Shown one piece after another: positions 1,950 through 19,742 of a DNA stretch of 28,903 nucleotides. The stretch's first letter is position 1; each line of letters opens with the position of its first letter. A program made the translations under genes and the position numbers. Below the pieces are notes generated by a model, which did not search any database, had not been told where the DNA came from, and was given only the letters and a program-made list of their open reading frames with translations. This stretch comes from an uncultured Pseudomonadota bacterium. Lineage in GTDB: Bacteria > Babelota > Babeliae > Babelales > UBA12409. Location of the stretch: the NCBI GenBank assembly GCA_964444435.1, contig CAYUHH010000001.1, forward strand, positions 1 to 28,903, written 5' to 3'.

Positions 1950-3091
1950 TAGTTACCCCTATCTATGCTGCCCTTTGATGCTTGATGTTTTTTTATATTT
2001 TCTAACTCTTTTAATCGAATATCTTCCAATGTTGGAGCAAATTTTTCTTTTGTTTTGAGAATTTTTATTTTTTCTTGTTCAAGTTTGTCGTCGAAAAATT
2101 TTTCAGTTTTAGTGAGGGCCTGTGTAGGTTCATTTTTAGGAAGAATAGGAGGTCTCTCAGAAAAAGGTTTTATTGTACCAATTTTTATTTTTTTAGTGAA
2201 CGGAGTGTTATTGCTTAATCCTTCTATTGAAAAAATACTGTTACGAGTGAGCGAGCTTATTTTTTTGTAGATTTGTAATCGTTCAACGGTTGTTGTTGCG
2301 GGAAGTTCAGCTATTTTGGTAATAATATCATTCGTTTTAAATCCTAAGATAGTGGGAAGAGTGTTTTCTTCGATATCACCTACTTTTGCACCAATACTTC
2401 GTCCTTGTTTAAATGCTGTGGTGAGATCAAATAAATCTATGAGATTGCTGAGTGATTTTATCTCATAAATGAATTCTTGCTTATCTATCAGATATTCAGA
2501 TTTGTTTGTTTTTTTAATGATATGAGACCAATTTTTTTTATCTTGTGTTAATTCGTCTTTTGAAGCTTCTTCTTGGCGTAGATACAGCATTTCTTGTTGG
2601 CCATTTGATCGTATCAACAGAATTTTGTTTGAAAATATTTTTACCAGTTGTGCATCTTCAATTTCATCGCCAATTTTGTAAGAAACTTCTTGTTTGCTTT
2701 TATTATCCAGAATGATAGCTCTATTGATTACATCATCATGAAACATGAAGATGCCGGTTAGGGTGATTGGCAGGGGGTCAAGGAATTTTGGTTGTTCTAT
2801 TTTTTGTGCTGGTATAACTACGGGTTGCGGAGGAGTTGGGATTGGTTTTACATAGCCAGGTTTTTTAGGTTGAGAGACTTCAGATTTATACGTATTAAAG
2901 AGATCATTTTCTTGATAAATTTGGTGCGTTTCAATTGTTTCACTTTTGGGGAAAGGTAGTTGCGTTGCAAGATCATCAGGTATAATAGAAGCAGATCTTT
3001 GTAATTGGACCTTGTATATTGATATGAATAATAAGAAAGTAAAAAATAGTAATAATGTACTTAAATTTAAGATCCAAACGGGATGTCTCAT
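1949..3091 (-). CDS. gspC: Type II secretion system protein GspC (TM anchor, Pro-rich linker, HR domain, PDZ-like domain, charged C-terminal extension)
   Basis: N-terminal TM; HR-like LTGIFMF..AIILDN..QEVSYKIGDEIEDAQLVKIFSNKILLIRSNGQQEML; PDZ-like GAKVGDIEENTLPTILGFKTNDIITKI; directly upstream of and coupled to gspD; RBS AAGGAG at 3100-3105. Confidence 0.85.
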   Translation of the reverse strand: MRHPVWILNLSTLLLFFTFLLFISIYKVQLQRSASIIPDDLATQLPFPKSETIETHQIYQENDLFNTYKSEVSQPKKPGYVKPIPTPPQPVVIPAQKIEQPKFLDPLPITLTGIFMFHDDVINRAIILDNKSKQEVSYKIGDEIEDAQLVKIFSNKILLIRSNGQQEMLYLRQEEASKDELTQDKKNWSHIIKKTNKSEYLIDKQEFIYEIKSLSNLIDLFDLTTAFKQGRSIGAKVGDIEENTLPTILGFKTNDIITKIAELPATTTVERLQIYKKISSLTRNSIFSIEGLSNNTPFTKKIKIGTIKPFSERPPILPKNEPTQALTKTEKFFDDKLEQEKIKILKTKEKFAPTLEDIRLKELENIKKHQASKGSIDRGN

Positions 3092-4477: not shown

Positions 4478-4504
4478 TGTTTTCATACCTTGAAAGGGAT
4501 GGCG

Positions 4505-6157
4505 ATGGGCAAAAGAACCGTTTTTGTTGTAAGCTTAATAAGTGGTTTTTTTAGTGTTACGTATTGTGCGCGTACTTTCTTGAGTCTTCCGGTACCTTTT
4601 CATCCTACTTCTCCTGAGCGTCAAACAATGACGCGAGATCAAATGAGAGATTTTACTCAGGAGAAATATCGCAAATTTTCTATTACATTGTTAGGTGGTC
4701 AAGCCACAGAAACTGACAAGATAGCCAAATATTTTTTACCTTTTGAAAAAACATCATTAGTTGCAGGTGAAATAGGTTCTGATGCAGTAAAAAATCACGA
4801 AGCTGATTTGATTGCGAATTACTTTAATGTATGTACTGGTCGGGCTCGTGCAACGGCAGATGAAGCGTTGGATCAAAATAATATATTTGATGTTATTGAT
4901 ACATGGACTTTTCAAAGTAAGTTAAATTTTTGTCCTTCGCATAAATATTTTGTTATTGGATTAGTTTATCATCATCATATGTCATCAAATTTTGATAAGG
5001 GATGGTGGTTTGAGTTGGCTATGCCCATTATGTGTATAAAAAATAATATGGGAATGAGCGAAATAATTGAAGTTTGTGGTGGTGAAGGTGGTGATGATCC
5101 CCAGCAAGCTCCTTCGTTTTTTTCTACGGATGCGGATCAGTTTGCAGCGCAATCTATGACAGCGGCCTTACGGAGTGGGCAATTTCGTTGTGGAAAAATT
5201 GATAGTAGAGAGTATCGACGTACAAAGTGGGGCGTTGCGGATTTAGAGTTTCGGCTTGGTTATACTTACTTCAAAGAGCCTGCATATCATTTAAGTAGTT
5301 ATGTGGGGGTTTTGGCACCAACAGGTAATACGCCTACTGGTGAATTTATGTTTGAAAAGGTTGTTGGATATAATGGTCAGACGGGATTTTTTTTAGGTAC
5401 AAACGGTGGAATTAAAGTCTGGGCACATGATCAAAACTATTTATCATTTGAATTTGATACAGGTGCGACTATGTTTGTAGATAATTTGCAATGTCGTTCC
5501 TTTGATTTGTATGATAAGCAATGGGGACGTTATATTTGGGTTTACCCAAACAAGCAAAAGTTTAATGATAACGAAGAATCTGAGGTGACGATGAAAGCTC
5601 CTCTTAAGCCAGGGATAAATTATTTCTCTAGAGGGGTATATGTTGAGCATGGTTCTATTCGAAATTTAAACTTAGCATGGGTTTATACGATGAGCGATTT
5701 TCAAGGTGAGCTTGGTTATCATTTCTATTCTAGGGACCGTGAAAAGGTTTGTTTGGCTAAAACGTGGAATGATGAGGTTGCATTAGCTGCGTTATGGGAT
5801 AGTAATAATAATTTTATTGGTGCTGGTGAAAGTCGTAAAAGTAGAACGAATGCTGTCATAAATAATTATACTGAAGTTACGAATGATGTGAGAGAATTTA
5901 AATCTCTTGAAGGGTTAACCACTGAACAAATTACCAATAATGATATGTATCTACCAATTAAAAACGGTCAGATTGATTTAGGTTCTGCTGCCTGTCCATC
6001 CGTTGTTGTTCATACGGTGTATGGTTCGGTAGGGTATGGTTGGTATGACATTGTTTTTCCTACCTCTATTAATCTTGCTGGTGGCTATGAATTTGGGAAT
6101 GGAAATGAAGTTGTTGATCGTTGGAAGCTGTGGTTTAAAGTAGGTGTTTCGTTTTGA
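4505..6157 (+). CDS. Putative Cys-rich outer-membrane beta-barrel protein (Dependentiae-type family, by recollection)
   Basis: Start placed at ATG 4505 (AAGGGA RBS) rather than TTG 4490. It has a signal peptide, alternating aromatic/Gly beta strands (ADLEFRLGY, GELGYHFY, AGGYEFG), a C-terminal WFKVGVSF with terminal Phe (BAM beta-signal), and 9 Cys in the ORF translation. Confidence 0.7.
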   Translation: MGKRTVFVVSLISGFFSVTYCARTFLSLPVPFHPTSPERQTMTRDQMRDFTQEKYRKFSITLLGGQATETDKIAKYFLPFEKTSLVAGEIGSDAVKNHEADLIANYFNVCTGRARATADEALDQNNIFDVIDTWTFQSKLNFCPSHKYFVIGLVYHHHMSSNFDKGWWFELAMPIMCIKNNMGMSEIIEVCGGEGGDDPQQAPSFFSTDADQFAAQSMTAALRSGQFRCGKIDSREYRRTKWGVADLEFRLGYTYFKEPAYHLSSYVGVLAPTGNTPTGEFMFEKVVGYNGQTGFFLGTNGGIKVWAHDQNYLSFEFDTGATMFVDNLQCRSFDLYDKQWGRYIWVYPNKQKFNDNEESEVTMKAPLKPGINYFSRGVYVEHGSIRNLNLAWVYTMSDFQGELGYHFYSRDREKVCLAKTWNDEVALAALWDSNNNFIGAGESRKSRTNAVINNYTEVTNDVREFKSLEGLTTEQITNNDMYLPIKNGQIDLGSAACPSVVVHTVYGSVGYGWYDIVFPTSINLAGGYEFGNGNEVVDRWKLWFKVGVSF

Positions 6158-7218: not shown

Positions 7219-7308
7219 TTTATTTAAGGTTAATAAAAAGTTAAATTATTTCCTAAATTATATTTTCGTGCTAGCGTGAGAAAAAGGCTGTTTTTAAGGG
7301 GAGCTCGT

Positions 7309-10300
7309 ATGAAAATTCATTTGGTTGCGGTGTTTTTTTTCTTTACGCATTGTTTTGCTCAAGACGTTAAAACTCAAGTAGAAGGTTTGATTAAAGAAAA
7401 TCATCAGCTTTGTATTTCACAAATTTTACAAACATTTAATGTGAATATTGATATTCCTCAGTATTCTGACCTTGCTCAAACAATTTTCAAAAATTTATGC
7501 TTAACGGTTGATAAGAATAAAATAAAAGTATTGCCCAATGGTGTTGAAGTTACAGGTCAGGCTCAATACAATGATCAAAATATTTCAGTTTCATTTCGAA
7601 TTTTAAAACCAAATTCATCATATGTTTTAGAAGTAATGACAACCATACCAAAACTTTCTCTGAGTGCAATTAACTCTTCTTTGCAAATTGTAGATGTAAC
7701 GGAATTGCAAAACGTTACTATTCTTTATTCGAATGCTTCTCTTAAAGATGATTTTAATATGATTCCGGTTAAACAAGGTTTAACGGTAGAAGCAGGGCTG
7801 AAATCTGCAGGATTTTTAACGCAAGCGTTAGGATCTGGTCTTAATAAAATAGCATCGCAAGTACGTTTACGCATATTTGTGCCAGTAGGCGCAAAGAGTA
7901 TGCAAGATGTGCAGACAAGGTTGGTACCGGCAGATGGTAAGCCGATAGAGTTGTGTCTTAAAGATTTGCCTGGTTTAAGTCAGATGCCACAAGACAATGC
8001 GTACATAAAGTCATTATTAAGTGACACATGTCTGAAGGCAGAGACATTTAATTTTGATGTACAAGAAGTGGATGGAAAAAATAAGATATCAGTATCATTG
8101 GCAGGTGAAGCAGAAGTAGTTGGCGCGAAGACAAAGGTAGAATTACATTTTCAAGATGGTAATTACATTGCGGCGGTAAAGATAAAGAGTCTCGATGACC
8201 TACTGAAGAATATGCCGGGCTTAAATGATGTCGGGGATCAACTAAAGAAACTTTTTACGTTCGAAGAGTTGCTTTTTGTGGTTTCAAATACGTCAGGATT
8301 GATGCAACTTAAGACAACAGAAGAGAAACCGGAACAAACACAGACAATGGAAGATGAGTTTGCAGATTTTGATGATGAAGAACTGTTGGCATTATTTGGA
8401 GAAGAGTTTATAGAGGAAACAGAGGCTGGAGAAGAAGAGCAAACGGGAATGCAGGTTGAGCCTGGCTGGAGTATAACGGGTAAGGTGAAAGCTTCGGGAA
8501 TTATAGCGGATACGCTTTCAAAGACAAATTTGAAGGGTGCATATATAAGCATGCATATGTCAAAGAAGGGTAGCCCTGATCAAAAACAAACATTAAAAGA
8601 TATACAGATTAAGTTAGAGCCGTTAATGAAAACAGATGAAGGACTTTGTTTAGGATCATTCTTGCAAGGTGTATTGGCAAAGTTTGGTATTGATGCGTTA
8701 GTTGCACCGGTAAAAGATATTTTGGACTTTGTATGTTTTGGAACAGATATTGGTATTACCTTTAATGCTGACATGAAGCCTGAATTATTTATACAGGGAC
8801 CATTGAAGAAAAAACCAAATATGACATCGATGGTAAAAATTGGACCAGCTCTTGAGGGATCAACAAGTAAGTTCTCAGTTGTATTTGGACTTAAGGGAGC
8901 GGATCTAAAAGTAAGTGATATTATTTCATTAAAAGAACTCGACATATTTGAATTGGAAAACCCGCTTATTTTAATGACAACTAAGGATGATGCAAGTGTA
9001 TTTGATGTGCAAAATGGAGCAGTTGATCAAAATGCACCAGGTGTGATACATCACTTACAAAAAGGTTTAACGGTAGAAGCAGGTCTGAAGTCTACAGGAT
9101 TCTTAACGCAAGCGTTAGGGCCTGGCCTTAATAAATTAGCATCGCAAGTGCGCTTACGTATATTTGTGCCAGCAGGCGCAAAGAGCATGCAAGATGTGAA
9201 GACGAAGTTGGTGCCGGTAGATGGTAAGCCGATAGAGCTGTGTCTTAAAGATTTGCCTGGTTTAAGTCAGATGCCACAAGACAATGCGTACATAAAGTCA
9301 TTATTAAGTGACACATGTCTGAAGGCAGAGACATTTAATTTTGATGTACAAGAAGTGGATGGAAAAAATAAGATATCAGTATCATTGGCAGGTGAAGCAG
9401 AAGTAGTTGGCGCGAAGACAAAGGTAGAATTACATTTTCAAGATGGTAATTACATTGCGGCGGTAAAGATAAAGAGTCTCGATGACCTACTGAAGAATAT
9501 GCCGGGCTTAAATGATGTCGGGGATCAACTAAAGAAACTTTTTACGTTCGAAGAGTTGCTTTTTGTGGTTTCAAATACGTCAGGATTGATGCAACTTAAG
9601 ACAACAGAAGAGAAACCGGAACAAACACAGACAATGGAAGATGAGTTTGCAGATTTTGATGATGAAGAACTGTTGGCATTATTTGGAGAAGAGTTTATAG
9701 AGGAAACAGAGGCTGGAGAAGAAGAGCAAACGGGAATGCAGGTTGAGCCTGGCTGGAGTATAACGGGTAAGGTGAAAGCTTCGGGAATTATAGCGGATAC
9801 GCTTTCAAAGACAAATTTGAAGGGTGCATATATAAGCATGCATATGTCAAAGAAGGGTAGCCCTGATCAAAAACAAACATTAAAAGATATACAGATTAAG
9901 TTAGAGCCGTTAATGAAAACAGATGAAGGACTTTGTTTAGGATCATTCTTGCAAGGTGTATTGGCAAAGTTTGGTATTGATGCGTTAGTTGCACCGGTAA
10001 AAGATATTTTGGACTTTGTATGTTTTGGAACAGATATTGGTATTACCTTTAATGCTGACATGAAGCCTGAATTATTTATACAGGGACCATTGAAGAAAAA
10101 ACCAAATATGATTTCAATGGTTAAGATAGAGCTTGCTCCTGAAGGTTTTGCTCCTAAGTTTTATATTACGTTTGGTCTCAAAGGTGGATCACTTACTTTG
10201 AGTGATATCCTTCCAATGGATCAGCTGGATATCTTTGAGTTAGAAAATCCAATTGTTTTAATGACAACTAAGGATGATGGGAGTGTTTTTGATGTTGAAG

Positions 10301-13300
10301 ATGGGGTGCTCAATGAAAGTGCGCCGGGAGCCATTCATCATTTACAGAAAGGATTAACTGTCGAAGCCGGAATTAAATCTACCGGATTCTTAACACAAGC
10401 ATTGGGACCTGGCTTTAATAAACTTGCATCGCAAGTGCGCTTGCGTATATTTGTGCCAGTAGGTGCAAAGAGTATGAAGGATGTGCAAACGAAGTTGATT
10501 CCTGTTGATGGAAAACCACTTGAAATATGCTTGAAAGATCTTCCTGGGGTTAGTCAAATTCCTCAAGATAATGCATACATAAAATCATTGTTGAGTGATA
10601 CTTGTTTGAAAGCAACTGCGTTTGATTTTGATGTACAACAGGTTGATGGTAAAAAGAAAATATCAGTATCGTTAGCCGGTGAGGCAACGGTTGTTGGTGT
10701 TCAAACTCAAGTAGAGTTACATTTTCAAGATGGCAAATATATTGCGGCTGTGAAAGTTAAAAGTATTGATGATCTTTTAAAAAATATTCCCGGACTTAAT
10801 ATTATTGGTGATCAGCTTAAAAATTTCTTTACATTTGAACAGTTATTATTTGTTATTGCCAATACGTCGGGCAAAATTCAATTGCAGATTAACAAGGATC
10901 CAAAGAAGCCTAGTCTTGAAAAATTAAAAGCGGAATTTGGATTGCTGATACCGACAGCTCAAAAAGCTCCCGAAGCAGGAATGATTGTAAAGCCTGGAAT
11001 TACGGTTGGTGGAAAAGTTGAGTCAGATGGAGTAATCAAAACAATATTTAGTGCAATAAAAATTGTTGGTGCATATGTAAGCATTACAAAGCCAAAAGTT
11101 GAAGAAGCAACAACGCCACAAGTTAACGTTAATACACAAGGCATTGATGCATCTATGAATGGATATGTGGTAAAAATTGATCCAATAACCGCTGATGGCA
11201 CTTTGGATTTAGGAAATATATTATTAGGATTTTTTGATAATTTTGGGTTTGGTTCTTTCTTGAGTCCATTTAAAAATTTATTGAGTACATTCTCCTTTGG
11301 TATAGGGTTTGACTTGGGCATTGATTTTAGATTAGGAAAGCCTCTTTTCTTTATTAATGGACCGTTCAAATTAAATCCTTCACTACTTGGTATGTTAAAA
11401 ATTAATTTACCCTTAAAAGGATTTTCACTTGATGGAGTAGATTTTTCATTTGGATTAAAAGGGCCCTCCCTTAAATTAATAGAATTTATTCCTCTTGACG
11501 TATTAAAAGGACTTAAATTAGATTTATTCGAATTGCAAAATCTTGTTGCAGCGCTTACTAATGACATGGGAATGAGTATTTTTGACATAAAGGATGGTAT
11601 TCTCGATATAAATGCTGTTGATGCACTTCTTAATTTGCCAAAAGGACTTATGATTGAAGGCGAATTGAAAACCGCAGGGTTTTTGGCCCAAGCATTAGGT
11701 TCATTAATCGATGATGTTTTGAGTAGTGTGCGGTTCCGTATTGTTGTTCCATTTGGCGCGACTTCATTGAAAGATATTAAATTAAGTCTTAATTTACTTA
11801 AAAAACAAAAGATTTGCTTAAATAAATTGCCCGGTCTCTCCGGAATGAGCGATGTTCCTCTGTTAAAAGATGTGTTAAATACTTGTCTTGAAGTTAATTC
11901 ATTAGATTTAAACCCTATTTCTAATGATAAATACGAACTTGCAGTTGATGGGGTGGCAAAAGTCGCAGGGCAGGATGCGGATGTTCAATTACGTCTTATG
12001 GTTGATTTAAAAACAAAGAAAAAAACGTATATTGTTGGTGTTAAACCGCTTGGTAAATTAAGTGCAGAACAGATTGAGCCGGCTCTTTCATTGGTCGATA
12101 AGATTGCGGCGATAGAGAACCCGATGCTTATTTATGCAGAGGAAGATTATGAAGGGCAAATATTTTCCTTTCCTCGCGTTAATAAAGGTTTAAACATTAT
12201 TACTGATTTTAAGGCTAAAGGTTTTATTGGTGACGTATTTTCAAATCTTGGTTTGAAAAAAATTAAAGCAATGATGAAAATTACCAAAAATGATAAAGGT
12301 AAAATTCGTCCAGCGATAATATTATTCCTTGAAGGTGAAGATGATGGTGTGCCAATGTTGGGTGCTTTGGAAAAAATAATACAAGGGCTCGATATTGGCG
12401 TTGCAGAGAGTTTGCAGTCAGTAATAGAGACAATTAATTTTGGAACAGCAATTGGTATTTTATTTGATGACAAGGATAAACCAGTTTTATTCTTTGATGG
12501 GAAATTAATTAAGGGCACCGGTATTGAGGCGATGGTTAAATTTACTAAATTCGATGAAAAGGGGTCAATTTTATCCAAACATTTAGGTGATATTGCTGGA
12601 GCTGCAGTAGTTGTTGATGAACAGAGAAATATTGGATATAAAGTTACCGGTGCTATTCGCACAGGAGAAATTAGATTAGGTGATATCTCAAAAGATCTTA
12701 GTTTTCTTGATTCACAGATTAAAATTAATGACCCTATTATTGCCTTTACGAATAGTGACGGGGAATCTGCTTATGATATTGATGTCCGCGATATGGCTAT
12801 TAAAGTTATAAAAGGTCAATCAATAGAAAATCTTAATATGGGAATTACTATTTTAGGTAGAATTGAGTTTCCTCCTGGATCATATTTGTATATGATTCTT
12901 TCTAAGTTTGGACTTGATACAGCGGGGATACGTATAGAGATTCCGGTTTTAGCAAAAGAGTCAAAACAAGTTGAGTTTAAATTTGAAACTGATAGTGGAG
13001 GCAAGTCAAAAAAATTCTGCTTAAGTGATTTGAAAGGGATGGTTCCGGCTAATATTGTTCCATCAATTGCTTTATTGCAAAAAGTTTTGGGGGGATCTGA
13101 TATTTGCCTTCAAAAGAGAAATTTAGGAATGCAGCCGGTTGAAACAGGCCTTGATTTTATTTTTAACGGCTACTTTATAGTTGATGATAAACCGCAAGAT
13201 ATGGCTATCGTATTTAATGTTAAGCAAAAAGAATCTGAAGGTGGTAGTGGCCCGGAAGTTATCTTAACAACTAAATTAAGTGGGGATCTTGATTTGGGAA

Positions 13301-16300
13301 TGTTTAATGATAAGTTGAAAGGCCAAGTTGTTCTTAAGCAGCCTCGATTTATTATTTCATCCCAAGAAACTGAGGCTGATGTATTAGGTATTGGTGAGAT
13401 TCAAAAAGGTTTTAGTATTAGATCGCAAGTTCATTTTGGTGGATATATTGGACAAGCACTTGATATGTTCCAGTTAAATGATATGTATGCTACCGTTCGA
13501 ATTCCACCTGATCCTGCAGATTTAGATGGATATATTATCGAGGTAAGTCAAACGTTTGATAAAGCACAAAAACCTGCGGGGGATGATCTGCAAATTTTAG
13601 GCTTCGATTATATCTTTAAAAGCGGTATCCCTCCAACGTTGGCTCTTAATTTGAATACGCTTTTCAGGATTCCTGGAGGTTCTTCAAAACCAGTAAGTTT
13701 AACCTTCACAACAGCGGTGAGTGGTCCTGAATTTACTTTGGCTGGAACTGCAAAGTGTAATCAAGGGGCGTGTCCCGCATTATCGCTCGCGAAATTCTTT
13801 CCAGCAACAATTAGTGCAACAAAGGATGTTCCCCTTGCTGCGTTAATTCATGTTATAGGTGGTAGCGTATTAGGTCTTGGAGGAAGTGGTGTCGCTGATT
13901 TATTTGGTCAACAAGCTCAAATTTCTTTTGATGTTGATCCTGTACATGTAAAAAAATCTGGACTTAAAGGAAAGGTGAGTAAAATCTGTGCAACTGATTT
14001 TACGAAAGTTTATACATTTTTAGGAAATGTTTCATCTGGTTTTGTTGATGTTTTCAATAAAATTCCAGGTTTTTTTTGTATCACAGATGCATCATTTAGC
14101 GTTGCTCAAGATAAAGTTACTATTGCGGGTGTCGTTATTGACCCTGGTATTGTGCTTAAGGGTAATTTTGCATGCGACATTAAGGCACTGCCAATGACGG
14201 GAAAGATAGATTTAAGTATTATCCCTCCAAGTTTTTCTAATGTGATTACTAAACTACAGCAGATTGGCGTTCATGGGGTTGCGAAGTTAGATCCTGTTAA
14301 GTGGGGCGACTTTATGTCAATAACCGATGTTTCTGGTAAAGGTGGCCCGACACTTGAAATTGATGCAACTTTGAAGAAGCAGGGTGTCAAGCTGTCTGGT
14401 TTAGTTAATATAATTCATATATTGAATGTTGTTGCAGATGTGGTATTCGGTCTTGATGGAATAAGTCTTAATGTTTCTCAATCAATTGCGGGTATTCAGT
14501 TGGACCGTGAAGTAACGATTCCATTTAAGAATCCTGCGGGCGGCAGTGTTTCCTGTGTGCTTTCTCAAGGACTTGTGAAGGCGGTAACGGGGTCACTTGA
14601 AAAATTGGTTAAAGAGGCTACGGACGTGTTGAATAAAGTAGCCGGTGGAGGGCAGCAGGCATTATTAGGTTCATGTGATACTGTTCTTAAAACCTTGAAG
14701 CCTTTTTTGAATATTTCGTGTACTGATTGTCTTAATAATCTTGGTCCGCTTGGATTTATTCAGGCTGTGATTGATGCGCTAAATAAATATGCCAAGAAAA
14801 TATTAGATTCACTTGATATTAGAAGTGCAGGATTTGAAGTTGATTTTGGCAGTATTATGGCGAAAAAGATGCCATCGTTAATAATTAAATATGTTTTTGG
14901 TGGTGGCGCAGAGAAAAAATTAACGATAGGGAACTTTGATGTAACAAAGCCACAAATGGTTATTGATCAGTTAGTAATGGGTATTTGGAAAGAGTTTGCA
15001 CCAGGTCAACTTGTTTCACTTATAACTGGTAATGTTGCGGAAATTTCTAAATCAATGACAGATGCGCTTAAGGACCAAAAATTGGAGTGTACCGCTTCAT
15101 CTCAGTTTGGTGGTGCTGACATTGTATTGAAGGTTAATTTCCAGCCTTCAGATCCGCAATCAGCCCAAGCGACAGGGATTGTTTCTAAGTTATGTCTGGG
15201 AAATTTGATAACAGCTGCAAATAATCTTGGCGTTGGTATTCCTTCCGTTAAATTCCCTTCAATAGGTTGTATGAAAGAAGCAGCTCTTACTGTTTCAGCA
15301 GGTCCATTTGCTGCAATTCAAGGAACGGTTGGTTTGTTGGGGGCAAACGTACAGCTTACTGGGTCTGTTTCTAAGGATGGCGTACAACTTAATGGGACAC
15401 TTGATAAAGATGTATCTTTGGGGTTGGTCAAATTAAGCGGCCTTGAGGGAACTGGGTGTAGTTGTGGTATAACATTGAATAAGTTTTTACAACAAATTGA
15501 GCTAGATGGGAATGTCGAAATTGGTGATGGGAAGGTGATAAACTCTGTTGGGCACCTTGCTATAAGAACAGATGAAATTATTATTGATTCGACTGCTTCT
15601 ATTTTGGGTTTGAAAGCTAAGTTTAAGGCGAAGGCTCCTTTTAGTTCTCCTGAAGACATTAGTGCTACTCTGACGATTCAACAAGATATTGCACAAAATA
15701 TTAAAGATGCAATGGTTGAGTCTCTTAATGAAGCCAAAAGTCAGGCGACTGCAGGGCTTGATAAAGTGAATTCGGTTTTCTCCAAGATTAAATCTAAGTG
15801 TGGTCCTTTGGGATCTGTTTGTGATTCTGCCATGGGCGGTGCGAAAAAAATAGTTAATTCAGCAAAAGATGCGTTTAATGCGGTTACAAGTTTAGTTAAT
15901 ACTTTTGCTCAGTTGCCGCTATCTATTAAGTCAATCGTGATCAAAGCAAAGTTTATAGACATTCAACGCAAGGGATCTGCTACTGTGATATTTAATACTG
16001 GTGGTTCGGATCAGTCGATGACCGTTAATGTTTCATTGGCCGGCATGAAAGCTTTTAGTCAAGATGTTGCTCTGGCAATTATTAATAATTCATTCAAATC
16101 TCCTTTTGCAAATGCTAAGAATTTAGCTGCAGGTTTTGATAATTTAGAAAAGAAATTACTTGATATTTTAAGTAACATTGGTGATTTGTTTAAGAATTTA
16201 ATGGGGGCTGCCGTTAAAGAAATAGGCAAATTGGCGGACAGCGCTTCAGAGGCTGCCTTAAATACAGCTAAAGACATGACCGCAACTATGGGTAATTTGT

Positions 16301-16596
16301 CAGGCGATACAACAGCAATAATGTCAGACATTTCTTCAAGTATGACAAGCGTTGAAGGTATAGGTAATTTAGCTACGGGCGCTGTTGCAGATGTTTCAAA
16401 AGCGCTAGATGATGCAAAGGATGCTGTGAAGGCTGCAACACAAGCCGCGAAGTTGGCAACTGAGGTGGCAGGCAAGGCGTTAGATGCGGCAAAACAAGCT
16501 GTGGCAAAAGCTGCCAAGGCGGCCAAAGAAGCGGCTGACAAGGCTTTTAATGCTGCAAAGAAAGCGGCAGAAAAATTGAATCCAAGTCATTGGTAA
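7309..16596 (+). CDS. Giant (~3095 aa) exported repetitive beta-rich protein of unknown function
   Basis: Single open frame. ATG 7309 follows AAGGGGA. Signal peptide MKIHLVAVFFFFTHCFA|QD; ~200-aa internal subrepeats; duplicated C-terminal module; Ala/Lys-rich helical tail. No recognised catalytic motif. Confidence 0.9.
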   Translation: MKIHLVAVFFFFTHCFAQDVKTQVEGLIKENHQLCISQILQTFNVNIDIPQYSDLAQTIFKNLCLTVDKNKIKVLPNGVEVTGQAQYNDQNISVSFRILKPNSSYVLEVMTTIPKLSLSAINSSLQIVDVTELQNVTILYSNASLKDDFNMIPVKQGLTVEAGLKSAGFLTQALGSGLNKIASQVRLRIFVPVGAKSMQDVQTRLVPADGKPIELCLKDLPGLSQMPQDNAYIKSLLSDTCLKAETFNFDVQEVDGKNKISVSLAGEAEVVGAKTKVELHFQDGNYIAAVKIKSLDDLLKNMPGLNDVGDQLKKLFTFEELLFVVSNTSGLMQLKTTEEKPEQTQTMEDEFADFDDEELLALFGEEFIEETEAGEEEQTGMQVEPGWSITGKVKASGIIADTLSKTNLKGAYISMHMSKKGSPDQKQTLKDIQIKLEPLMKTDEGLCLGSFLQGVLAKFGIDALVAPVKDILDFVCFGTDIGITFNADMKPELFIQGPLKKKPNMTSMVKIGPALEGSTSKFSVVFGLKGADLKVSDIISLKELDIFELENPLILMTTKDDASVFDVQNGAVDQNAPGVIHHLQKGLTVEAGLKSTGFLTQALGPGLNKLASQVRLRIFVPAGAKSMQDVKTKLVPVDGKPIELCLKDLPGLSQMPQDNAYIKSLLSDTCLKAETFNFDVQEVDGKNKISVSLAGEAEVVGAKTKVELHFQDGNYIAAVKIKSLDDLLKNMPGLNDVGDQLKKLFTFEELLFVVSNTSGLMQLKTTEEKPEQTQTMEDEFADFDDEELLALFGEEFIEETEAGEEEQTGMQVEPGWSITGKVKASGIIADTLSKTNLKGAYISMHMSKKGSPDQKQTLKDIQIKLEPLMKTDEGLCLGSFLQGVLAKFGIDALVAPVKDILDFVCFGTDIGITFNADMKPELFIQGPLKKKPNMISMVKIELAPEGFAPKFYITFGLKGGSLTLSDILPMDQLDIFELENPIVLMTTKDDGSVFDVEDGVLNESAPGAIHHLQKGLTVEAGIKSTGFLTQALGPGFNKLASQVRLRIFVPVGAKSMKDVQTKLIPVDGKPLEICLKDLPGVSQIPQDNAYIKSLLSDTCLKATAFDFDVQQVDGKKKISVSLAGEATVVGVQTQVELHFQDGKYIAAVKVKSIDDLLKNIPGLNIIGDQLKNFFTFEQLLFVIANTSGKIQLQINKDPKKPSLEKLKAEFGLLIPTAQKAPEAGMIVKPGITVGGKVESDGVIKTIFSAIKIVGAYVSITKPKVEEATTPQVNVNTQGIDASMNGYVVKIDPITADGTLDLGNILLGFFDNFGFGSFLSPFKNLLSTFSFGIGFDLGIDFRLGKPLFFINGPFKLNPSLLGMLKINLPLKGFSLDGVDFSFGLKGPSLKLIEFIPLDVLKGLKLDLFELQNLVAALTNDMGMSIFDIKDGILDINAVDALLNLPKGLMIEGELKTAGFLAQALGSLIDDVLSSVRFRIVVPFGATSLKDIKLSLNLLKKQKICLNKLPGLSGMSDVPLLKDVLNTCLEVNSLDLNPISNDKYELAVDGVAKVAGQDADVQLRLMVDLKTKKKTYIVGVKPLGKLSAEQIEPALSLVDKIAAIENPMLIYAEEDYEGQIFSFPRVNKGLNIITDFKAKGFIGDVFSNLGLKKIKAMMKITKNDKGKIRPAIILFLEGEDDGVPMLGALEKIIQGLDIGVAESLQSVIETINFGTAIGILFDDKDKPVLFFDGKLIKGTGIEAMVKFTKFDEKGSILSKHLGDIAGAAVVVDEQRNIGYKVTGAIRTGEIRLGDISKDLSFLDSQIKINDPIIAFTNSDGESAYDIDVRDMAIKVIKGQSIENLNMGITILGRIEFPPGSYLYMILSKFGLDTAGIRIEIPVLAKESKQVEFKFETDSGGKSKKFCLSDLKGMVPANIVPSIALLQKVLGGSDICLQKRNLGMQPVETGLDFIFNGYFIVDDKPQDMAIVFNVKQKESEGGSGPEVILTTKLSGDLDLGMFNDKLKGQVVLKQPRFIISSQETEADVLGIGEIQKGFSIRSQVHFGGYIGQALDMFQLNDMYATVRIPPDPADLDGYIIEVSQTFDKAQKPAGDDLQILGFDYIFKSGIPPTLALNLNTLFRIPGGSSKPVSLTFTTAVSGPEFTLAGTAKCNQGACPALSLAKFFPATISATKDVPLAALIHVIGGSVLGLGGSGVADLFGQQAQISFDVDPVHVKKSGLKGKVSKICATDFTKVYTFLGNVSSGFVDVFNKIPGFFCITDASFSVAQDKVTIAGVVIDPGIVLKGNFACDIKALPMTGKIDLSIIPPSFSNVITKLQQIGVHGVAKLDPVKWGDFMSITDVSGKGGPTLEIDATLKKQGVKLSGLVNIIHILNVVADVVFGLDGISLNVSQSIAGIQLDREVTIPFKNPAGGSVSCVLSQGLVKAVTGSLEKLVKEATDVLNKVAGGGQQALLGSCDTVLKTLKPFLNISCTDCLNNLGPLGFIQAVIDALNKYAKKILDSLDIRSAGFEVDFGSIMAKKMPSLIIKYVFGGGAEKKLTIGNFDVTKPQMVIDQLVMGIWKEFAPGQLVSLITGNVAEISKSMTDALKDQKLECTASSQFGGADIVLKVNFQPSDPQSAQATGIVSKLCLGNLITAANNLGVGIPSVKFPSIGCMKEAALTVSAGPFAAIQGTVGLLGANVQLTGSVSKDGVQLNGTLDKDVSLGLVKLSGLEGTGCSCGITLNKFLQQIELDGNVEIGDGKVINSVGHLAIRTDEIIIDSTASILGLKAKFKAKAPFSSPEDISATLTIQQDIAQNIKDAMVESLNEAKSQATAGLDKVNSVFSKIKSKCGPLGSVCDSAMGGAKKIVNSAKDAFNAVTSLVNTFAQLPLSIKSIVIKAKFIDIQRKGSATVIFNTGGSDQSMTVNVSLAGMKAFSQDVALAIINNSFKSPFANAKNLAAGFDNLEKKLLDILSNIGDLFKNLMGAAVKEIGKLADSASEAALNTAKDMTATMGNLSGDTTAIMSDISSSMTSVEGIGNLATGAVADVSKALDDAKDAVKAATQAAKLATEVAGKALDAAKQAVAKAAKAAKEAADKAFNAAKKAAEKLNPSHW
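7952..8824 (+). repeat. 873-bp direct repeat, copy 1 (identical to 9239..10111; period 1287 bp = 429 codons)
   Basis: Line-by-line comparison showed no mismatch between 7952-8824 and 9239-10111. The first mismatches are at 7951/9238 and 8825/10112. Confidence 0.95.
9239..10111 (+). repeat. 873-bp direct repeat, copy 2
   Basis: Identical to 7952..8824. A third, diverged in-phase copy follows a further 1287 bp downstream. Confidence 0.95.
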
Positions 16597-16609: not shown

Positions 16610-17623
16610 ATGAAACGGTTAGTGATGTTATTAATGATAAGCGAGGTAATGAGTGAGTTGCCTCCTATGCCTCAAATATCTTCAGGTGGATGTGGAAATA
16701 GTAAGGCAATACTTTTTGTGAGACAAATTCGTTATGTAAATGTCCTTAAAGATTATATTCAAAAAAAAGGTGCAGAAATTAAGGATGCAGCGTTTGTAAT
16801 CAAAATTGCACAAATTAAGATTAAGGGGTTACAAAGTATTATTGAATCAATGAAAATAGTGATTAATAGTTATGCTGCAAAAATTGAATCAACAAAAGAA
16901 GGTGTGAAAGAGTTACAAGGTCAGTATCCAGATGTTAATAAATTGTCGGGGGTAGCTTTTTGTGAAGCTCGTTATGCGTTGGCGATGATTCCTCCTTTAA
17001 AATTTGCCCTTAAAAATGGATATATGGATTTTGATAATTCTTTTGTATACACTAACGTGGCTATGCAAATGGGTAGTTGTTTGAAAGACACAACAGTTTC
17101 TCTTGATGAGATGGTGAGTAGTTCCATACAAACGGGAGTAATTACCGATAAGCAATTGGAGGCGATGATGGGTGCAAGTCGTGCAGACTTTCCAAGTAAG
17201 TATGGCGAGTCTTTTGATCAGTATGCAAAGAGTTTTAATCTGCCTTTCGATAAAGGTGGGGTGCAAGATAATTTGATTCAATTTACTCGTGCCATACGCG
17301 GTCTCAAACCTTTTCTTGATCAATTGTCAAAAACTATTGCGGGAATTAAGGTGCGCATTAAAAATGCATTGAACTTGATGCAGAAATATAGCACTTCAAT
17401 GGCTACAGAGTATCAAAATGTTTTGGACAATCAAAATCTTGTAAAAAATCACATTGCAACGATTCAAGCGCAAAAAAAGATTATTGAAGATTGTGCAACT
17501 GAGATAATAAATGCAAAAGATACGATACAAGATCTTGTTGTAAAAATAAACAATGCTCAATCAGATAATGGTATGTTTAAGGATTGTCCTAAATGGTTAC
17601 AAACAGCTCTTAAGGGAATCTAA
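16610..17623 (+). CDS. Hypothetical, probably exported, alpha-helical/coiled-coil protein (337 aa), partner of the giant gene
   Basis: Lies 13 bp after the giant stop with RBS GGAAGGGG. Short N-terminal hydrophobic segment; long heptad-like helices near both ends; 5 Cys. Confidence 0.8.
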   Translation: MKRLVMLLMISEVMSELPPMPQISSGGCGNSKAILFVRQIRYVNVLKDYIQKKGAEIKDAAFVIKIAQIKIKGLQSIIESMKIVINSYAAKIESTKEGVKELQGQYPDVNKLSGVAFCEARYALAMIPPLKFALKNGYMDFDNSFVYTNVAMQMGSCLKDTTVSLDEMVSSSIQTGVITDKQLEAMMGASRADFPSKYGESFDQYAKSFNLPFDKGGVQDNLIQFTRAIRGLKPFLDQLSKTIAGIKVRIKNALNLMQKYSTSMATEYQNVLDNQNLVKNHIATIQAQKKIIEDCATEIINAKDTIQDLVVKINNAQSDNGMFKDCPKWLQTALKGI

Positions 17624-18075: not shown

Positions 18076-18648
18076 TTATTCAGGTGCTTTTGGTAATTCA
18101 GGTTTTTTTATATCTTTAAGTTGTTTAGTTAAATCACCCTTGTTATTTTGAAGTAATTCAGTTGAAGTTTTAATATTTTCTAAATATTGATTTGTTTCCG
18201 CAGTTTGGTCGGAAGCATTTTTATTGAGTGTAGGTTTCTGAAAGCCAAGGTCTTTAAGATATAATGATGAGAACGCTTTTTCTAATTTTTTTCTTTGATT
18301 TATGTAAGCTGTTTTAGTTGTATCTGAGAAACCTTTTGTTGCATCATCTATCGATTTATTCCATTCCCCTGTTTTCATTTGACCTAATCCAATTAAGGCG
18401 TCTCCGATGGTTGCGAGTTTATCGTTAATTGGGTTTGTTTGTGTATTGTAAGTTTCTAATTTTTTATTGTAAGTTTTTAAGGCGTCGGTATATTTTTGGT
18501 TAATTGATTCAATGATAGTGGATGCCGGTATTTTTTCTACGTTTGTTGAAGATCTATTTGTGAGTATTGTCAAATTTGTTTGATATTCTGTTTGGCTTTG
18601 TAATTGAATTGTTATTAGTAGGATGGAGATATATAAAAATTTTTTCAT
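18076..18648 (-). CDS. Secreted helical hypothetical protein (190 aa)
   Basis: Signal peptide MKKFLYISILLITIQLQS; Lys/Thr/Asn/Gln-rich helical body; 4-bp ATGA overlap with the upstream gene. Confidence 0.8.
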   Translation of the reverse strand: MKKFLYISILLITIQLQSQTEYQTNLTILTNRSSTNVEKIPASTIIESINQKYTDALKTYNKKLETYNTQTNPINDKLATIGDALIGLGQMKTGEWNKSIDDATKGFSDTTKTAYINQRKKLEKAFSSLYLKDLGFQKPTLNKNASDQTAETNQYLENIKTSTELLQNNKGDLTKQLKDIKKPELPKAPE

Positions 18649-19742
18649 TTTTCATCCTTTGGGCTAATTCTTTCTACAATGTTATTTACTTGTGTTTTTG
18701 TGTAAACTTCTCCACGAGGGTTGACTGATGTTACAGATGTAAGGCTTGGATGTGTTGGTTTCTTATCCTTTTCAATTGTGGCAAACCATAAACTATTAAA
18801 TGTTTTGTAGCAATTAAGGTCGACGATAGAATCCGTAAGATCGGTGTTTTCAAAGTTTGCGCCTAATACCGGTGCGCTGAATAATGTTTTTTTCATGATT
18901 GAATTTTTGAAAGATGTTGCGGAAAGATCGGTGTTTTCAAATATCGCTCCAGTTGCATTACTTGCAATTGTGCCTGTTCCATTTCCGATTACGACGCTTT
19001 CAAAGATAAGGTTTTTTGCCGAACCATTCGTTATTGTAAGATTTGTTATATGTGGAGAGGGAGGAGGAGGGTCTTCGTTTTTGGCATCATCTATGACGGT
19101 CATGGTAAAATTGCTGTTATCTATGATTGAGTCGGTTATAATAATGTTTTCAGCGTTTAGTTGTGTTAGGTCTGCATTGTTGAATATACATTTATCTATG
19201 GCCAATGTGCCATGTACGATTGAATTGCTTAGTTGTACCTTTTGGCCATCATTAATATTGCTAAATTTGTTTGTTATTTCGTTATAATTGTGAAAGTTGC
19301 AGCCCATGAAGGCTGTCGGTTTTTTATTATTCTCATTAAAAGAGCATCCATTAAATGAACAACCGTAAAAGGTACAGTTAGAAAAAATAGTATTTGCCAT
19401 TTTGGCGCCATCAAATTTTGTATTGGTAAAGGTGCAGTTGGTAAGTGCGGTGAGGCCGGTGCTTGTTGGTGAGCTGAAAATTGCGTTTGAAAAATCGGCA
19501 TTCATTAAGTTAAGTACACTAATCTTAGTTTCTTCAAGATGTGCATTTTGAAAATTAACAGTTTTTGAGGGGATAAAAAAAGAATTAAGCATGCATCCTT
19601 TTAAGTTTGCATCTTCAAGATTAGGAGTGGGTGAGCCTTTTTTTGTATTATTTATTGTTTGTATGCATTTAAAAATGCTTGGTTTTGAATAAGTAAAATG
19701 GTGAGTTAATAAAATAATAGATAATAAAAGTATTTTTTTCAT
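18645..19742 (-). CDS. Signal-peptide-bearing pentapeptide-repeat protein
   Basis: Runs such as NLMNA-DFSNA, ALTNC-TFTNT-KFDGA-KMANT-IFSNC-TFYGC-SFNGC and IFENT-DLSAT-SFKNS-IMKKT. Signal peptide MKKILLLSIILLTHHFTYS; RBS GGAGG. Confidence 0.85.
   Translation of the reverse strand: MKKILLLSIILLTHHFTYSKPSIFKCIQTINNTKKGSPTPNLEDANLKGCMLNSFFIPSKTVNFQNAHLEETKISVLNLMNADFSNAIFSSPTSTGLTALTNCTFTNTKFDGAKMANTIFSNCTFYGCSFNGCSFNENNKKPTAFMGCNFHNYNEITNKFSNINDGQKVQLSNSIVHGTLAIDKCIFNNADLTQLNAENIIITDSIIDNSNFTMTVIDDAKNEDPPPPSPHITNLTITNGSAKNLIFESVVIGNGTGTIASNATGAIFENTDLSATSFKNSIMKKTLFSAPVLGANFENTDLTDSIVDLNCYKTFNSLWFATIEKDKKPTHPSLTSVTSVNPRGEVYTKTQVNNIVERISPKDEK

What the first reader, a model, noticed from the sequence alone, without database searches (positions are those of the whole stretch)
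7309..13410. Two-level repeat architecture: alternating A/B ~200-aa subrepeats whose Cys pairs are kept or lost together
A G-x-T/S-V/I-x-G/A...G-F/I-L/I anchor recurs at nt 7777, 8464, 9064, 9751, 10351, 10996, 11644, 12187, 12841 and 13408 (spacings 229, 200, 229, 200, 215, 216, 181, 218, 189 aa). The first eight junctions are preceded by an L-x-N/D/E-P/L/V-hydrophobic strand (ELQNVTILYS, TFEELLFVVS, ELENPLILMT, AIENPMLIYA, KINDPIIAFT). Units read (A-B)x4 + A, with a half unit at the N-terminus. All A units keep a Cys pair around a helix (LCL..DTCL, ICL..NTCL, FCL..DICL). B1/B2 have LCL..VCF, while B3 (LDL..FSF) and B4 (PML..INF) lose both Cys together. This co-variation suggests one structural disulfide per module, and therefore an oxidising extracytoplasmic location and an unnamed repeat domain.
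Basis: seen in the sequence. Interest (0 to 1): 0.72.

Follow-up and report, generated by a model that had tools for sequence, protein, structure and literature searches.

The report
Giant secreted protein of disulfide-stapled repeats
One 9.3-kb bacterial gene encodes a 3,095-residue exported protein made of about eleven copies of an undescribed ~185-residue module that alternates between two types, most copies carrying a co-evolving cysteine pair; the family is rare and has no named relatives, and its function (possibly lipid or membrane binding) is still a guess.

Summary

- **Gene and repeats.** Window 7309-16596 (+) is one gene with a Shine-Dalgarno site and a Sec-type signal peptide. All ten anchors lie in frame at the stated coordinates.
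- **Unit order.** The protein reads: truncated N-terminal unit, (A-B)x4, A, a Cys-less half unit, then at least one degenerate unit inside the C-terminal module.
- **A and B are homologous.** hhalign gives 86% probability with close relatives and 98.6% (E 1e-15) family-wide.
- **Cys pair.** The two Cys columns are the most strongly coupled of 11,628 column pairs. Over 93 units the counts are 68 both, 22 neither and 3 single. Each pair brackets a helical hairpin between two strands.
- **No known relatives.** Pfam, NCBIfam and PDB sequences give no significant match. A confident AlphaFold model of one unit has no PDB fold match.
- **Rarity.** An exhaustive profile search of 1.84 billion proteins found 21 hits, one of them false. 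Members carry 1 to about 11 units.
- **Multi-unit model.** It is mostly long amphipathic antiparallel strands, and its best PDB hit is the beta-belt of apolipoprotein B100.
- **Best reading.** This is a disulfide-stabilised extracytoplasmic beta-ribbon of adjustable length. Lipid or membrane association is possible but unproven.
- **Partner gene.** A small secreted coiled-coil gene follows the giant gene across the family.

The parts
7309..16596 (+). Giant gene: 3095 codons from ATG 7309 plus the stop codon. The ORF lister's GTG 7276 start is probably 11 codons too early.
   Evidence: SD AAGGGGAG at 7296-7303. P0001 = 3095 aa.
7309..7359 (+). Sec-type signal peptide MKIHLVAVFFFFTHCFA, with predicted cleavage before QD.
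   Evidence: Read from the sequence. Relatives have equivalent N-termini.
7366..7776 (+). N-terminally truncated unit N0 (profile positions ~37-181), with Cys pair C46/C75.
7777..8463 (+). Unit A1 (Cys 227/252). It ends in a ~50-aa acidic insert (8314-8463).
8464..9063 (+). Unit B1 (Cys 458/487).
9064..9750 (+). Unit A2 (Cys 656/681) with an acidic insert at 9601-9750. The core 9064-9600 was modelled with pLDDT 84.
9751..10350 (+). Unit B2 (Cys 887/916).
10351..10995 (+). Unit A3 (Cys 1085/1110), with a shorter non-acidic insert at 10888-10995.
10996..11643 (+). Unit B3. Both Cys are replaced (D..S) and the hairpin is very Phe-rich.
11644..12186 (+). Unit A4 (Cys 1514/1537).
12187..12840 (+). 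Unit B4. Both Cys are replaced (P..N). The ortholog of this unit in P0004 keeps both.
12841..13407 (+). Unit A5 (Cys 1915/1944). This is the A-type unit that is always the last full unit in the family.
13408..13794 (+). Cys-less half unit (profile positions 1-117), conserved in almost every family member as the junction to the C-terminal module.
   Evidence: (iE 2.9e-20).
13795..16101 (+). C-terminal module. It holds a hydrophobic Gly-rich segment (GGSVLGLGGSG), a degenerate unit with Cys pair 2238/2268 (13798-14334; iE 3.4e-10) and a marginal second candidate near Cys pair 2640/2665 (15022-15444; iE 0.004), and Cys-containing helical segments. It is internally duplicated compared with the small family members.
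16102..16593 (+). Ala/Lys-rich amphipathic helical tail (25% A, 13% K).
   Evidence: The sub-threshold apolipophorin-III and helical-bundle hits fall in the helical segment of the C-terminal module (the A4 profile ends at nt 15075), not in this tail.
16610..17623 (+). Downstream partner gene: 337-aa secreted coiled-coil protein. Its N-terminal motif recurs directly downstream of the giant gene in L001, L003 and L007 by blastp, and in L006 by eye.

Best explanation
The gene encodes a Sec-exported giant protein of 3,078 mature residues. It belongs to an undescribed, rare family.

Shown:
- The chain is a truncated unit, nine full ~185-aa units that alternate between two ancient subtypes (A and B), a Cys-less half unit, a C-terminal module that contains at least one further degenerate unit, and an Ala/Lys-rich helical tail.
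- Each unit is alpha/beta, with about nine strands and three short helical elements.
- Two co-evolving cysteines sit at the end of one strand and the start of the next. They bracket a 23-30-residue helical hairpin.

Inferred:
- The two cysteines form one disulfide that staples the base of the hairpin. This requires folding in the periplasm or outside the cell.
- Units are joined by beta-hairpins without linkers, so the strands merge into one long amphipathic antiparallel beta-ribbon. The hairpins and loops, including the 50-aa acidic loops of A1 and A2, act as inter-strand inserts.
- Length is set by gain or loss of A-B pairs. Relatives carry 1 to about 11 units, and copies 1 and 2 here were homogenised very recently.
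- As a working mechanism, the hydrophobic face of the ribbon and the amphipathic C-terminal tail bind lipid or a membrane. The protein would then act as an apolipoprotein-B-like belt, or as a long lipid-binding tether, on or beyond the cell surface. It may work with the conserved downstream coiled-coil protein and may be exported by the adjacent type II secretion system.
For: - Architecture and homology.
- Signal peptide and start codon.
- Cys coupling.
- Structural context of the Cys pair.
- Unit model: pLDDT 84.2, pTM 0.69.
- Four-unit model: pLDDT 74.4, 44% strand. In it 29 of 46 long strands have one hydrophobic and one polar face, and the unit junctions are beta-hairpins.
- Foldseek on the four-unit model: the best PDB matches are ApoB100 of LDL (9e9r E 8.4e-5, prob 0.84; 9ea7; 9bdt). 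Outer-membrane barrels follow, which means a long curved antiparallel sheet.
- ApoB100 itself is a 120-strand amphipathic beta-belt (mean strand length 11 residues) with helical inter-strand inserts (PMC11839476).
- Tail composition and helical amphipathicity.
- Variable unit number and A-type last unit across the family.
- The 800-nt identical tract between copies 1 and 2.
- Conserved partner gene.
- gspD and gspC within 4 kb in this window and in L001.
Against: - No coordinates were available. Sheet continuity, an exposed hydrophobic face and the S-S distance are therefore all inferred from secondary-structure strings.
- The ApoB match has TM 0.05-0.12. It may mean no more than 'many long antiparallel strands'.
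- There is no sequence relationship to any lipid-binding family. The BPI hit has E 0.16 and apolipophorin-III E 0.65.
- Amphipathic strands also occur in ordinary two-layer soluble domains, and the unit's helices could cover the hydrophobic face.
- T2SS linkage is seen only in the two close relatives, not in L004, L005 or L006.
- The organism is uncultured and its lifestyle is unknown.
Confidence: 0.4

Rival explanations
1. It is a surface fibre or adhesin spacer. The units would be independent, disulfide-hardened globular domains strung like beads. They would hold a functional C-terminal module (ankyrin repeats in some relatives) away from the cell, with unit number tuning the reach. No lipid would be involved.
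For: - Giant secreted bacterial repeat proteins are usually adhesins.
- Unit number varies from 1 to about 11 while the C-terminal module is constant.
- P0006 and P0015 end in what look, by eye, like ankyrin repeats.
- Recent homogenisation of repeats, as seen in adhesins.
- One disulfide per domain is typical of extracellular domains.
Against: - There are no linkers between most units, and the junctions are predicted beta-hairpins.
- The single-unit model matches no known globular fold.
- No adhesin-type domain (Ig-like, cadherin, RTX) and no anchoring or secretion domain (LPXTG, autotransporter barrel, TPS) was found.
- The multi-unit model matches belts and barrels rather than bead-like folds.
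Confidence: 0.3
2. It is a membrane-inserting protein. The C-terminal module, or the whole ribbon, would close into a beta-barrel or pore in the bacterium's own outer membrane or in a host or prey membrane. That would make it a giant pore-forming toxin or translocon.
For: - Foldseek hits to VDAC1 (prob 0.91, TMt 0.37), TOM40, porins, ushers, LptD and TonB-dependent receptors.
- A hydrophobic Gly-rich segment, VPLAALIHVIGGSVLGLGGSG.
- Many family members end in an aromatic or hydrophobic residue (W, F, L).
Against: - The last ~160 residues are helical, not a beta-signal strand.
- Barrel hits have low TM scores and most have low probability.
- There are no aromatic girdles or OMP Pfam families.
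- Disulfide-stapled helical hairpins in every unit fit poorly inside a barrel wall.
Confidence: 0.1
3. It is a repeating-beta-groove (AsmA/TamB/VPS13-like) bridge that carries lipids through a hydrophobic groove between two membranes.
For: - The size, the beta-rich repeats, the amphipathic strands and the amphipathic C-terminal helices all recall bridge-like lipid transfer proteins (PMC6791001, PMC12066543).
Against: - No AsmA, TamB, Chorein_N or VPS13 Pfam hit appears even at E<=1 in 14 members.
- No RBG structure appears among the top 50 Foldseek hits.
- The N-terminus is a cleavable-looking signal peptide, not a membrane anchor plus chorein motif.
- The unit is ~185 aa with about nine strands and three helical elements, not five strands plus a loop.
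- At roughly 3,000 residues the protein is far longer than a periplasm.
Confidence: 0.1
4. The repeat number is an assembly artefact, or the Cys pairs are cytoplasmic metal ligands rather than disulfides.
For: - Copies 1 and 2 are 100% identical over ~800 nt.
- The homologous gene in L001 carries an assembly gap inside its repeats.
Against: - An independent metagenome (P0002, 86% identity, 3086 aa) has the same ten-unit layout, and its copies are diverged.
- A signal peptide is present throughout the family.
- Two Cys per 185 aa, with no His or Cys partners, cannot form a metal site.
- Pairs are replaced by unrelated residues (D..S, P..N, K..E) with no loss of the unit.
Confidence: 0.03

Closest known systems
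Apolipoprotein B100 beta-belt (large lipid transfer protein family; PDB 9e9r, PMC11839476)
   Same: Both are very large secreted proteins dominated by amphipathic antiparallel strands about 10-11 residues long. Both have helical inserts between strands and long amphipathic helical segments. ApoB100 is the best Foldseek hit for the four-unit model (E 8.4e-5, prob 0.84).
   Different: There is no sequence similarity and no vitellogenin-type N-terminal lipid-transfer domain. The window protein has a regular 185-aa module with a disulfide-stapled hairpin, which ApoB lacks. TM scores are very low (0.05-0.12). One protein is bacterial and the other from vertebrates. Lipid binding was not tested here.
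Bridge-like lipid transfer proteins of the repeating-beta-groove superfamily (AsmA, TamB, YhdP, VPS13, ATG2)
   Same: Both are giant beta-rich proteins built from repeated strand-plus-helix units. Both have amphipathic helices at the C-terminus. AsmA-like members are also extracytoplasmic in diderm bacteria.
   Different: No Pfam or Foldseek link was found. The unit anatomy differs (about nine strands and three helical elements against five strands and a loop). The N-terminus is a signal peptide rather than a membrane anchor with a chorein motif. The cysteine pairs have no counterpart.
TULIP / BPI-like lipid-binding domains (BPI 1bp1; bacterial double-TULIP TipA with its partner TipB, bioRxiv 10.1101/2025.09.09.675085)
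   Same: Both have ~200-aa alpha/beta modules used in tandem. BPI's N-terminal domain has one conserved disulfide. A sub-threshold profile hit links the C-terminal module to BPI residues 72-199 (E 0.16). TipA, like this protein, is encoded next to a small partner protein.
   Different: The hit is not significant. The single-unit model does not match any TULIP structure in the PDB (best TM 0.27). The position of the Cys pair also differs: here it is strand to strand across a helical hairpin, whereas by my recollection BPI's links a strand to a helix.
Giant secreted bacterial repeat adhesins (Ig-like, cadherin-like or RTX families)
   Same: Both show a signal peptide or other export, many tandem domains, copy-number variation between relatives and recent homogenisation of neighbouring repeats.
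   Different: None of the known adhesin repeat domains, anchors or secretion signals is present. The unit is much larger (185 aa against 80-110 aa) and contains helices.

Membership tests
Sec-exported, disulfide-bonded extracytoplasmic repeat protein (generic class) | N-terminal signal peptide | tested here: met
   The sequence reads MK + a 14-residue hydrophobic core + CFA|QD, after SD-ATG 7309. Equivalent N-termini occur in relatives. This was judged by eye; no dedicated predictor was available.
Sec-exported, disulfide-bonded extracytoplasmic repeat protein (generic class) | Cysteines occur in conserved, co-varying pairs | tested here: met
   CC 68, neither 22, single 3 over 93 units. Top MI-APC pair of 11,628. 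32 Cys in the mature protein.
Sec-exported, disulfide-bonded extracytoplasmic repeat protein (generic class) | Paired Cys within bonding distance in a structure | not testable with these tools
   Model coordinates are not exposed. Only the topology is known: end of one strand, start of the next.
Repeating-beta-groove / AsmA-like lipid bridges | Sequence match to AsmA, TamB, DUF748, Chorein_N or VPS13 profiles | tested here: not met
   No such Pfam family at E<=1 in 14 family members, nor in the full protein.
Repeating-beta-groove / AsmA-like lipid bridges | Units of five strands plus a crossing loop, forming an open hydrophobic groove | tested here: inconclusive
   The unit has about nine strands and three helical elements. 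No RBG structure is among the top 50 Foldseek hits. Groove geometry cannot be checked without coordinates.
Large lipid transfer proteins (ApoB / vitellogenin / MTP) | Vitellogenin-type N-terminal lipid-transfer module | tested here: not met
   No Pfam hit. The N-terminus is a truncated repeat unit.
Large lipid transfer proteins (ApoB / vitellogenin / MTP) | Long amphipathic beta-sheet resembling the ApoB beta-belt | tested here: inconclusive
   Foldseek gives 9e9r at E 8.4e-5, prob 0.84, but TM 0.12/0.05. 29 of 46 long strands are amphipathic.
TULIP / BPI-like | TULIP fold: a long helix wrapped by a curved sheet | tested here: not met
   The single-unit model (pLDDT 84) has no PDB match better than E 0.086 and TM 0.27, and none of the listed top hits is a TULIP protein.
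TULIP / BPI-like | Significant profile similarity to BPI, LBP or CETP | tested here: inconclusive
   The family profile hits BPI 1bp1 and 1ewf at E 0.16-0.22 over ~125 residues of the C-terminal module. This is below significance.
Known bacterial adhesin repeats / autotransporters / RTX | Ig-like, cadherin or RTX repeats, or an autotransporter, TPS or LPXTG element | tested here: not met
   Pfam and NCBIfam give nothing.

The most novel reading that the evidence does not exclude
This family would be a bacterial counterpart of apolipoprotein-type beta-belts. A secreted amphipathic beta-ribbon hundreds of strands long would have its length adjusted by A-B module duplication. Together with its C-terminal amphipathic helices and a dedicated small coiled-coil partner, it would wrap, extract or bridge lipid, for example host or prey membranes or lipid droplets. 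That would be a class of lipid-handling machine not so far described in prokaryotes, built on a new disulfide-stapled fold.
Probability: 0.2. Interest if true: 0.85.

Novelty: new variant of a known kind. Interest (0 to 1): 0.6.

Why it matters
- **New domain family.** The module has a confident predicted structure and a clean co-evolving disulfide, but no Pfam, NCBIfam or PDB relative. It is a candidate for curation and for structure determination.
- **Repeat evolution on two time scales.** The family shows an ancient A/B split that is kept in alternation. On top of that sits very recent homogenisation, an ~800-nt identical tract between copies 1 and 2.
- **Possible new lipid-handling proteins.** If the ribbon really exposes a hydrophobic face, these proteins would extend apolipoprotein-like or bridge-like lipid handling to secreted bacterial proteins. 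The ankyrin-like C-terminal regions of some members, judged by eye, would point to interaction with eukaryotic hosts.
- **If it is only a spacer.** If the protein is simply a long adhesin stalk, the finding is a well-characterised but ordinary new repeat domain.

Tried and rejected
- **Tandem Repeats Finder** found nothing, because the 1287-nt period exceeds its limit. The repeat finder recovered the three DNA copies.
- **Whole-protein self-BLAST** returns only the self hit. I switched to unit-against-unit comparison.
- **Word-indexed homology search** with the full protein found only two relatives. The same tool with a 38-unit alignment returned nothing at all, not even the query, so one search was wasted. 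The exhaustive profile search was what opened up the family.
- **P0020**, an Ig-like repeat protein, was rejected as a false positive.
- **The genome-contig scan** found only the MAG already known, so the taxonomy stays at 'uncultured Pseudomonadota' for the nearest relative. A literature search for that study accession found nothing.
- **Pfam, NCBIfam, PDB sequence profiles and Rfam** gave no significant hits.
- **Foldseek** with the single unit against the PDB, and with the four-unit model against viral structures, gave nothing.
- **An FFAT-like or other host-binding short motif** in the acidic inserts did not fit the consensus by eye and was dropped.
- **Window 1-1950**, an apparently gene-free but conserved stretch, was checked as a possible RNA or pseudogene. 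It is simply gspD on the minus strand, running off the window end.

Full report
**The gene.** Window 7276-16596 (+) is a single 3,106-codon open frame. The real start is almost certainly ATG 7309. AAGGGGAG lies 5-6 nt upstream of it, the database copy of the protein has 3,095 residues, and the product then begins with MKIHLVAVFFFFTHCFA|QD, a classic Sec signal peptide. The surrounding sequence is an ordinary low-GC (about 36%) bacterial chromosome:
- upstream: gspD (running off the left end), gspC, a MoxR ATPase, an unknown 555-aa protein and galE;
- downstream: a pentapeptide-repeat protein, a PfkB kinase, Lon, RNase T, a GNAT acetyltransferase, a DUF2608 phosphatase and atpD.

**Checking the observation.** At the DNA level there is a 1287-nt (429-aa) direct repeat in three copies.

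- A1-A2-A3-A4 at E 1e-165 to 1e-19, with A5 at 8e-4;
- B1-B2-B3-B4 at E 1e-126 to 1e-9.

A against B is only marginal by BLAST, but the matches are colinear. Profile methods decide the question. A- and B-profiles built from the three closest proteins align in register over 151 columns with 86% probability. Family-wide A- and B-profiles align over 161 columns with 98.6% probability, E 1.2e-15.

A combined model that did not include the N-terminal segment finds it at iE 4.8e-13, covering profile positions 37-181 of 200. The 'half unit' is therefore a true N-terminally truncated unit that starts just after the signal peptide.

The architecture '(A-B)x4 + A with a half unit in front' is correct, but it does not end at 13410. 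Iterated searches add a Cys-less half unit (13408-13794, iE 3e-20) and one degenerate unit in the C-terminal module (13798-14334, iE 3.4e-10), plus a marginal second candidate (15022-15444, iE 0.004).

**The cysteines.** The protein has 33 Cys. One is in the signal peptide, and the 32 in the mature chain occur in local pairs. Within the repeat region every Cys lies in one of two alignment columns, 23-30 residues apart. B3 (D..S) and B4 (P..N) lack both.

Across 93 units from the whole family the states are CC 68, neither 22 and single 3. Two of the singles are alignment slips, because those units do contain two Cys. The one real exception is H..C in unit A1 of the 86%-identical ortholog P0002. 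After clustering at 40% identity the counts are 45 / 12 / 3. If the two columns were independent, about a third of units would be singles. The two columns are the top-scoring pair of 11,628 in an APC-corrected mutual-information scan, z 7.5.

Pair loss happened several times independently. Examples are B3; B4, whose P0004 ortholog keeps the pair; P0004 unit 366-552; the first units of P0009 and P0010; and the half units.

In both AlphaFold models Cys1 is the last residue of a strand and Cys2 the first residue of the next strand, with a helical hairpin between them. This is the geometry expected for a disulfide that staples the base of an insert. I could not measure the distance, because coordinates are not exposed.

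**The family.** The word-indexed search found only an 86% ortholog from a JGI metagenome and a 35% relative in an NCBI MAG labelled 'uncultured Pseudomonadota'. The gene in that MAG has an assembly gap inside the repeats.

An exhaustive profile search of 1.84 billion cluster representatives found just 21 proteins, 15 of them below 1e-10 and one a false positive. They share one plan:
- signal peptide;
- truncated unit;
- n full units, from one in the ~880-aa members to nine here and about eleven in P0006;
- Cys-less half unit;
- conserved C-terminal module;
- Ala/Lys/Glu/Gln-rich helical tail, which in two members appears by eye to be replaced by ankyrin-like repeats.

A/B alternation also holds in L001, P0004 and P0005, and roughly in P0006. 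The last full unit is always A-type, and the minimal members have only that A unit. The A/B split is therefore ancient, and growth happens by adding A-B pairs.

In this window, copies 1 and 2 of the 1287-nt repeat are 100% identical over about 800 nt but only 61-92% identical at their edges. In P0002 the corresponding copies differ. This points to recent gene conversion rather than mis-assembly, and the independent ortholog confirms the copy number.

**What the module is.** No Pfam or NCBIfam family matches the protein or 14 of its relatives, even at E<=1. No PDB sequence matches the unit profile.

A model of unit A2 built with a 38-sequence alignment is confident (pLDDT 84.2, pTM 0.69). Its order of elements is beta-alpha-beta-beta-beta-[helical hairpin]-beta-beta-beta-beta-alpha-beta. 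Foldseek finds no PDB fold for it; the best hit has E 0.086 and TM 0.27 or less. On present evidence it is an undescribed domain.

**How the units assemble.** A 1,144-residue model covering A4-B4-A5, the half unit and the first part of the C-terminal module has pLDDT 74.4. It is 44% strand and 25% helix. Strands are typically 9-13 residues long, and the junctions between units are beta-hairpins rather than linkers. Of 46 long strands, 29 have one hydrophobic and one polar face, and only 4 are hydrophobic on both.

Foldseek's best PDB matches for this model are three ApoB100 structures from LDL (E 8.4e-5 to 1.5e-3, prob up to 0.84). Outer-membrane barrels, LptD, ushers and VDAC follow. All have low TM scores. 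According to the structure paper, ApoB100 is a 120-strand amphipathic beta-belt with a mean strand length of 11 residues. It is interrupted by helical inserts, and AlphaFold collapses it when no lipid is present (PMC11839476).

The family profile also gives sub-threshold hits to BPI (E 0.16) and apolipophorin-III (E 0.65). I treat these only as leads.

**Most likely mechanism.**
- Shown: this is an exported, cysteine-paired, modular beta-rich protein of a new family, with variable unit number.
- Inferred: the pairs are disulfides, and the strands of successive units merge into one long amphipathic ribbon. The helical hairpins and the acidic loops of A1 and A2 project from it as inserts.
- Speculative, though it is the reading I commit to at about 0.4: the apolar face and the amphipathic tail engage lipid or membranes. 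The protein would then work as a belt or tether of adjustable length.

Two features of the locus may bear on this. A small secreted coiled-coil protein is encoded directly downstream here and in L001, L003 and L007, with a similar motif seen by eye in L006; the copies share an N-terminal motif. The neighbouring gspC-gspD genes suggest, weakly, export by type II secretion. That linkage is seen only in the two closest genomes.

**Rivals.**
- A bead-like adhesin stalk remains a serious alternative (0.3).
- A membrane-inserting barrel or pore (0.1) and an AsmA/VPS13-type groove (0.1) are less likely. The tail is helical, no profile or fold links exist, and the unit anatomy differs.
- Assembly artefact or cytoplasmic metal binding is essentially excluded.

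**Novelty.** Giant secreted repeat proteins with one disulfide per module are a familiar kind of thing. This module, its alternating two-type arrangement and the family as a whole appear to be undescribed. I rate it a new variant of a known kind, with interest 0.6. About a one-in-five chance remains that it is a genuinely new class of prokaryotic lipid-handling protein.

Noticed in passing
window 16610-17623 (+); L001:15341-16255; L003:7300-7890; L006:16314-18026; L007:5776-6306: The gene directly downstream of the giant gene encodes a secreted coiled-coil protein. Its N-terminal motif (C..N..A..F[VI]RQ[IV]RY[VL]..L[KQ].Y) recurs downstream of four other family members, including a distant one (P0010, about 21% identity). 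For L001, L003 and L007 the match is from blastp; for L006 it was seen only by eye and blastp reported no hit. This looks like a conserved two-gene module.
   Followed up: partly
window 1-1952 (-): the ORF listing shows no gene here, yet the stretch is 69% identical at the nucleotide level to L001, with strong third-codon-position divergence. It is a 650-codon open frame on the minus strand that runs off the left end of the window, and it appears to be the T2SS secretin gspD. That naming rests on a short tblastn match to the Pfam-annotated secretin gene fragment of L001 and on its position just downstream of gspC (1949-3091); no family search was run on it.
   Followed up: yes
window ~7975-8766 and ~9262-10053: About 800 nt are perfectly identical between repeat copies 1 and 2, while the edges of the same copies are only 61-92% identical. 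This is a gene-conversion tract, or less likely a local assembly collapse. The ortholog P0002 keeps diverged copies.
   Followed up: partly
window 8314-8463 and 9601-9750: A 50-residue strongly acidic insert rich in Phe and Leu (EEKPEQTQTMEDEFADFDDEELLALFGEEFIEETEAGEEEQTG) sits at the A-to-B junction of A1 and A2. A similar insert occurs in L001, and Asp/Leu-rich ones in P0012 and P0016. A3 has a non-acidic insert at the same place. Its purpose is unknown, and it does not fit an FFAT motif by eye.
   Followed up: partly
window 11170-11260 (unit B3, aa ~1300-1330): In the Cys-less unit B3 the helical hairpin is unusually hydrophobic and Phe-rich (LGNILLGFFDNFGFGSFLSPFKNLLSTF), as if it were a lipid- or membrane-inserting loop.
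   Followed up: no
proteins P0006 and P0015 (relatives; L005): Two family members, of 3,111 and 5,131 aa, appear by eye to replace the helical tail with long ankyrin-repeat-like regions. P0015 also has Pro/Gly-rich 'LPDGSIK'-type repeats. This hints at interaction with eukaryotic hosts. P0005, P0012 and P0016 end in FCFG(I/G)(F/L)(L)C.
   Followed up: no
window 18645-19742 (-); L004:2824-3372; L006:18052-19284: Pentapeptide-repeat proteins lie within a few kb of the giant gene in three otherwise non-syntenic loci. This may be coincidence.
   Followed up: no
window 4490-6157 (+): This 555-aa protein has a signal-peptide-like N-terminus and no Pfam or NCBIfam match. Its C-terminal half is conserved at 63% identity in L001 (6612-7373), between the MoxR gene and galE.
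   Followed up: partly
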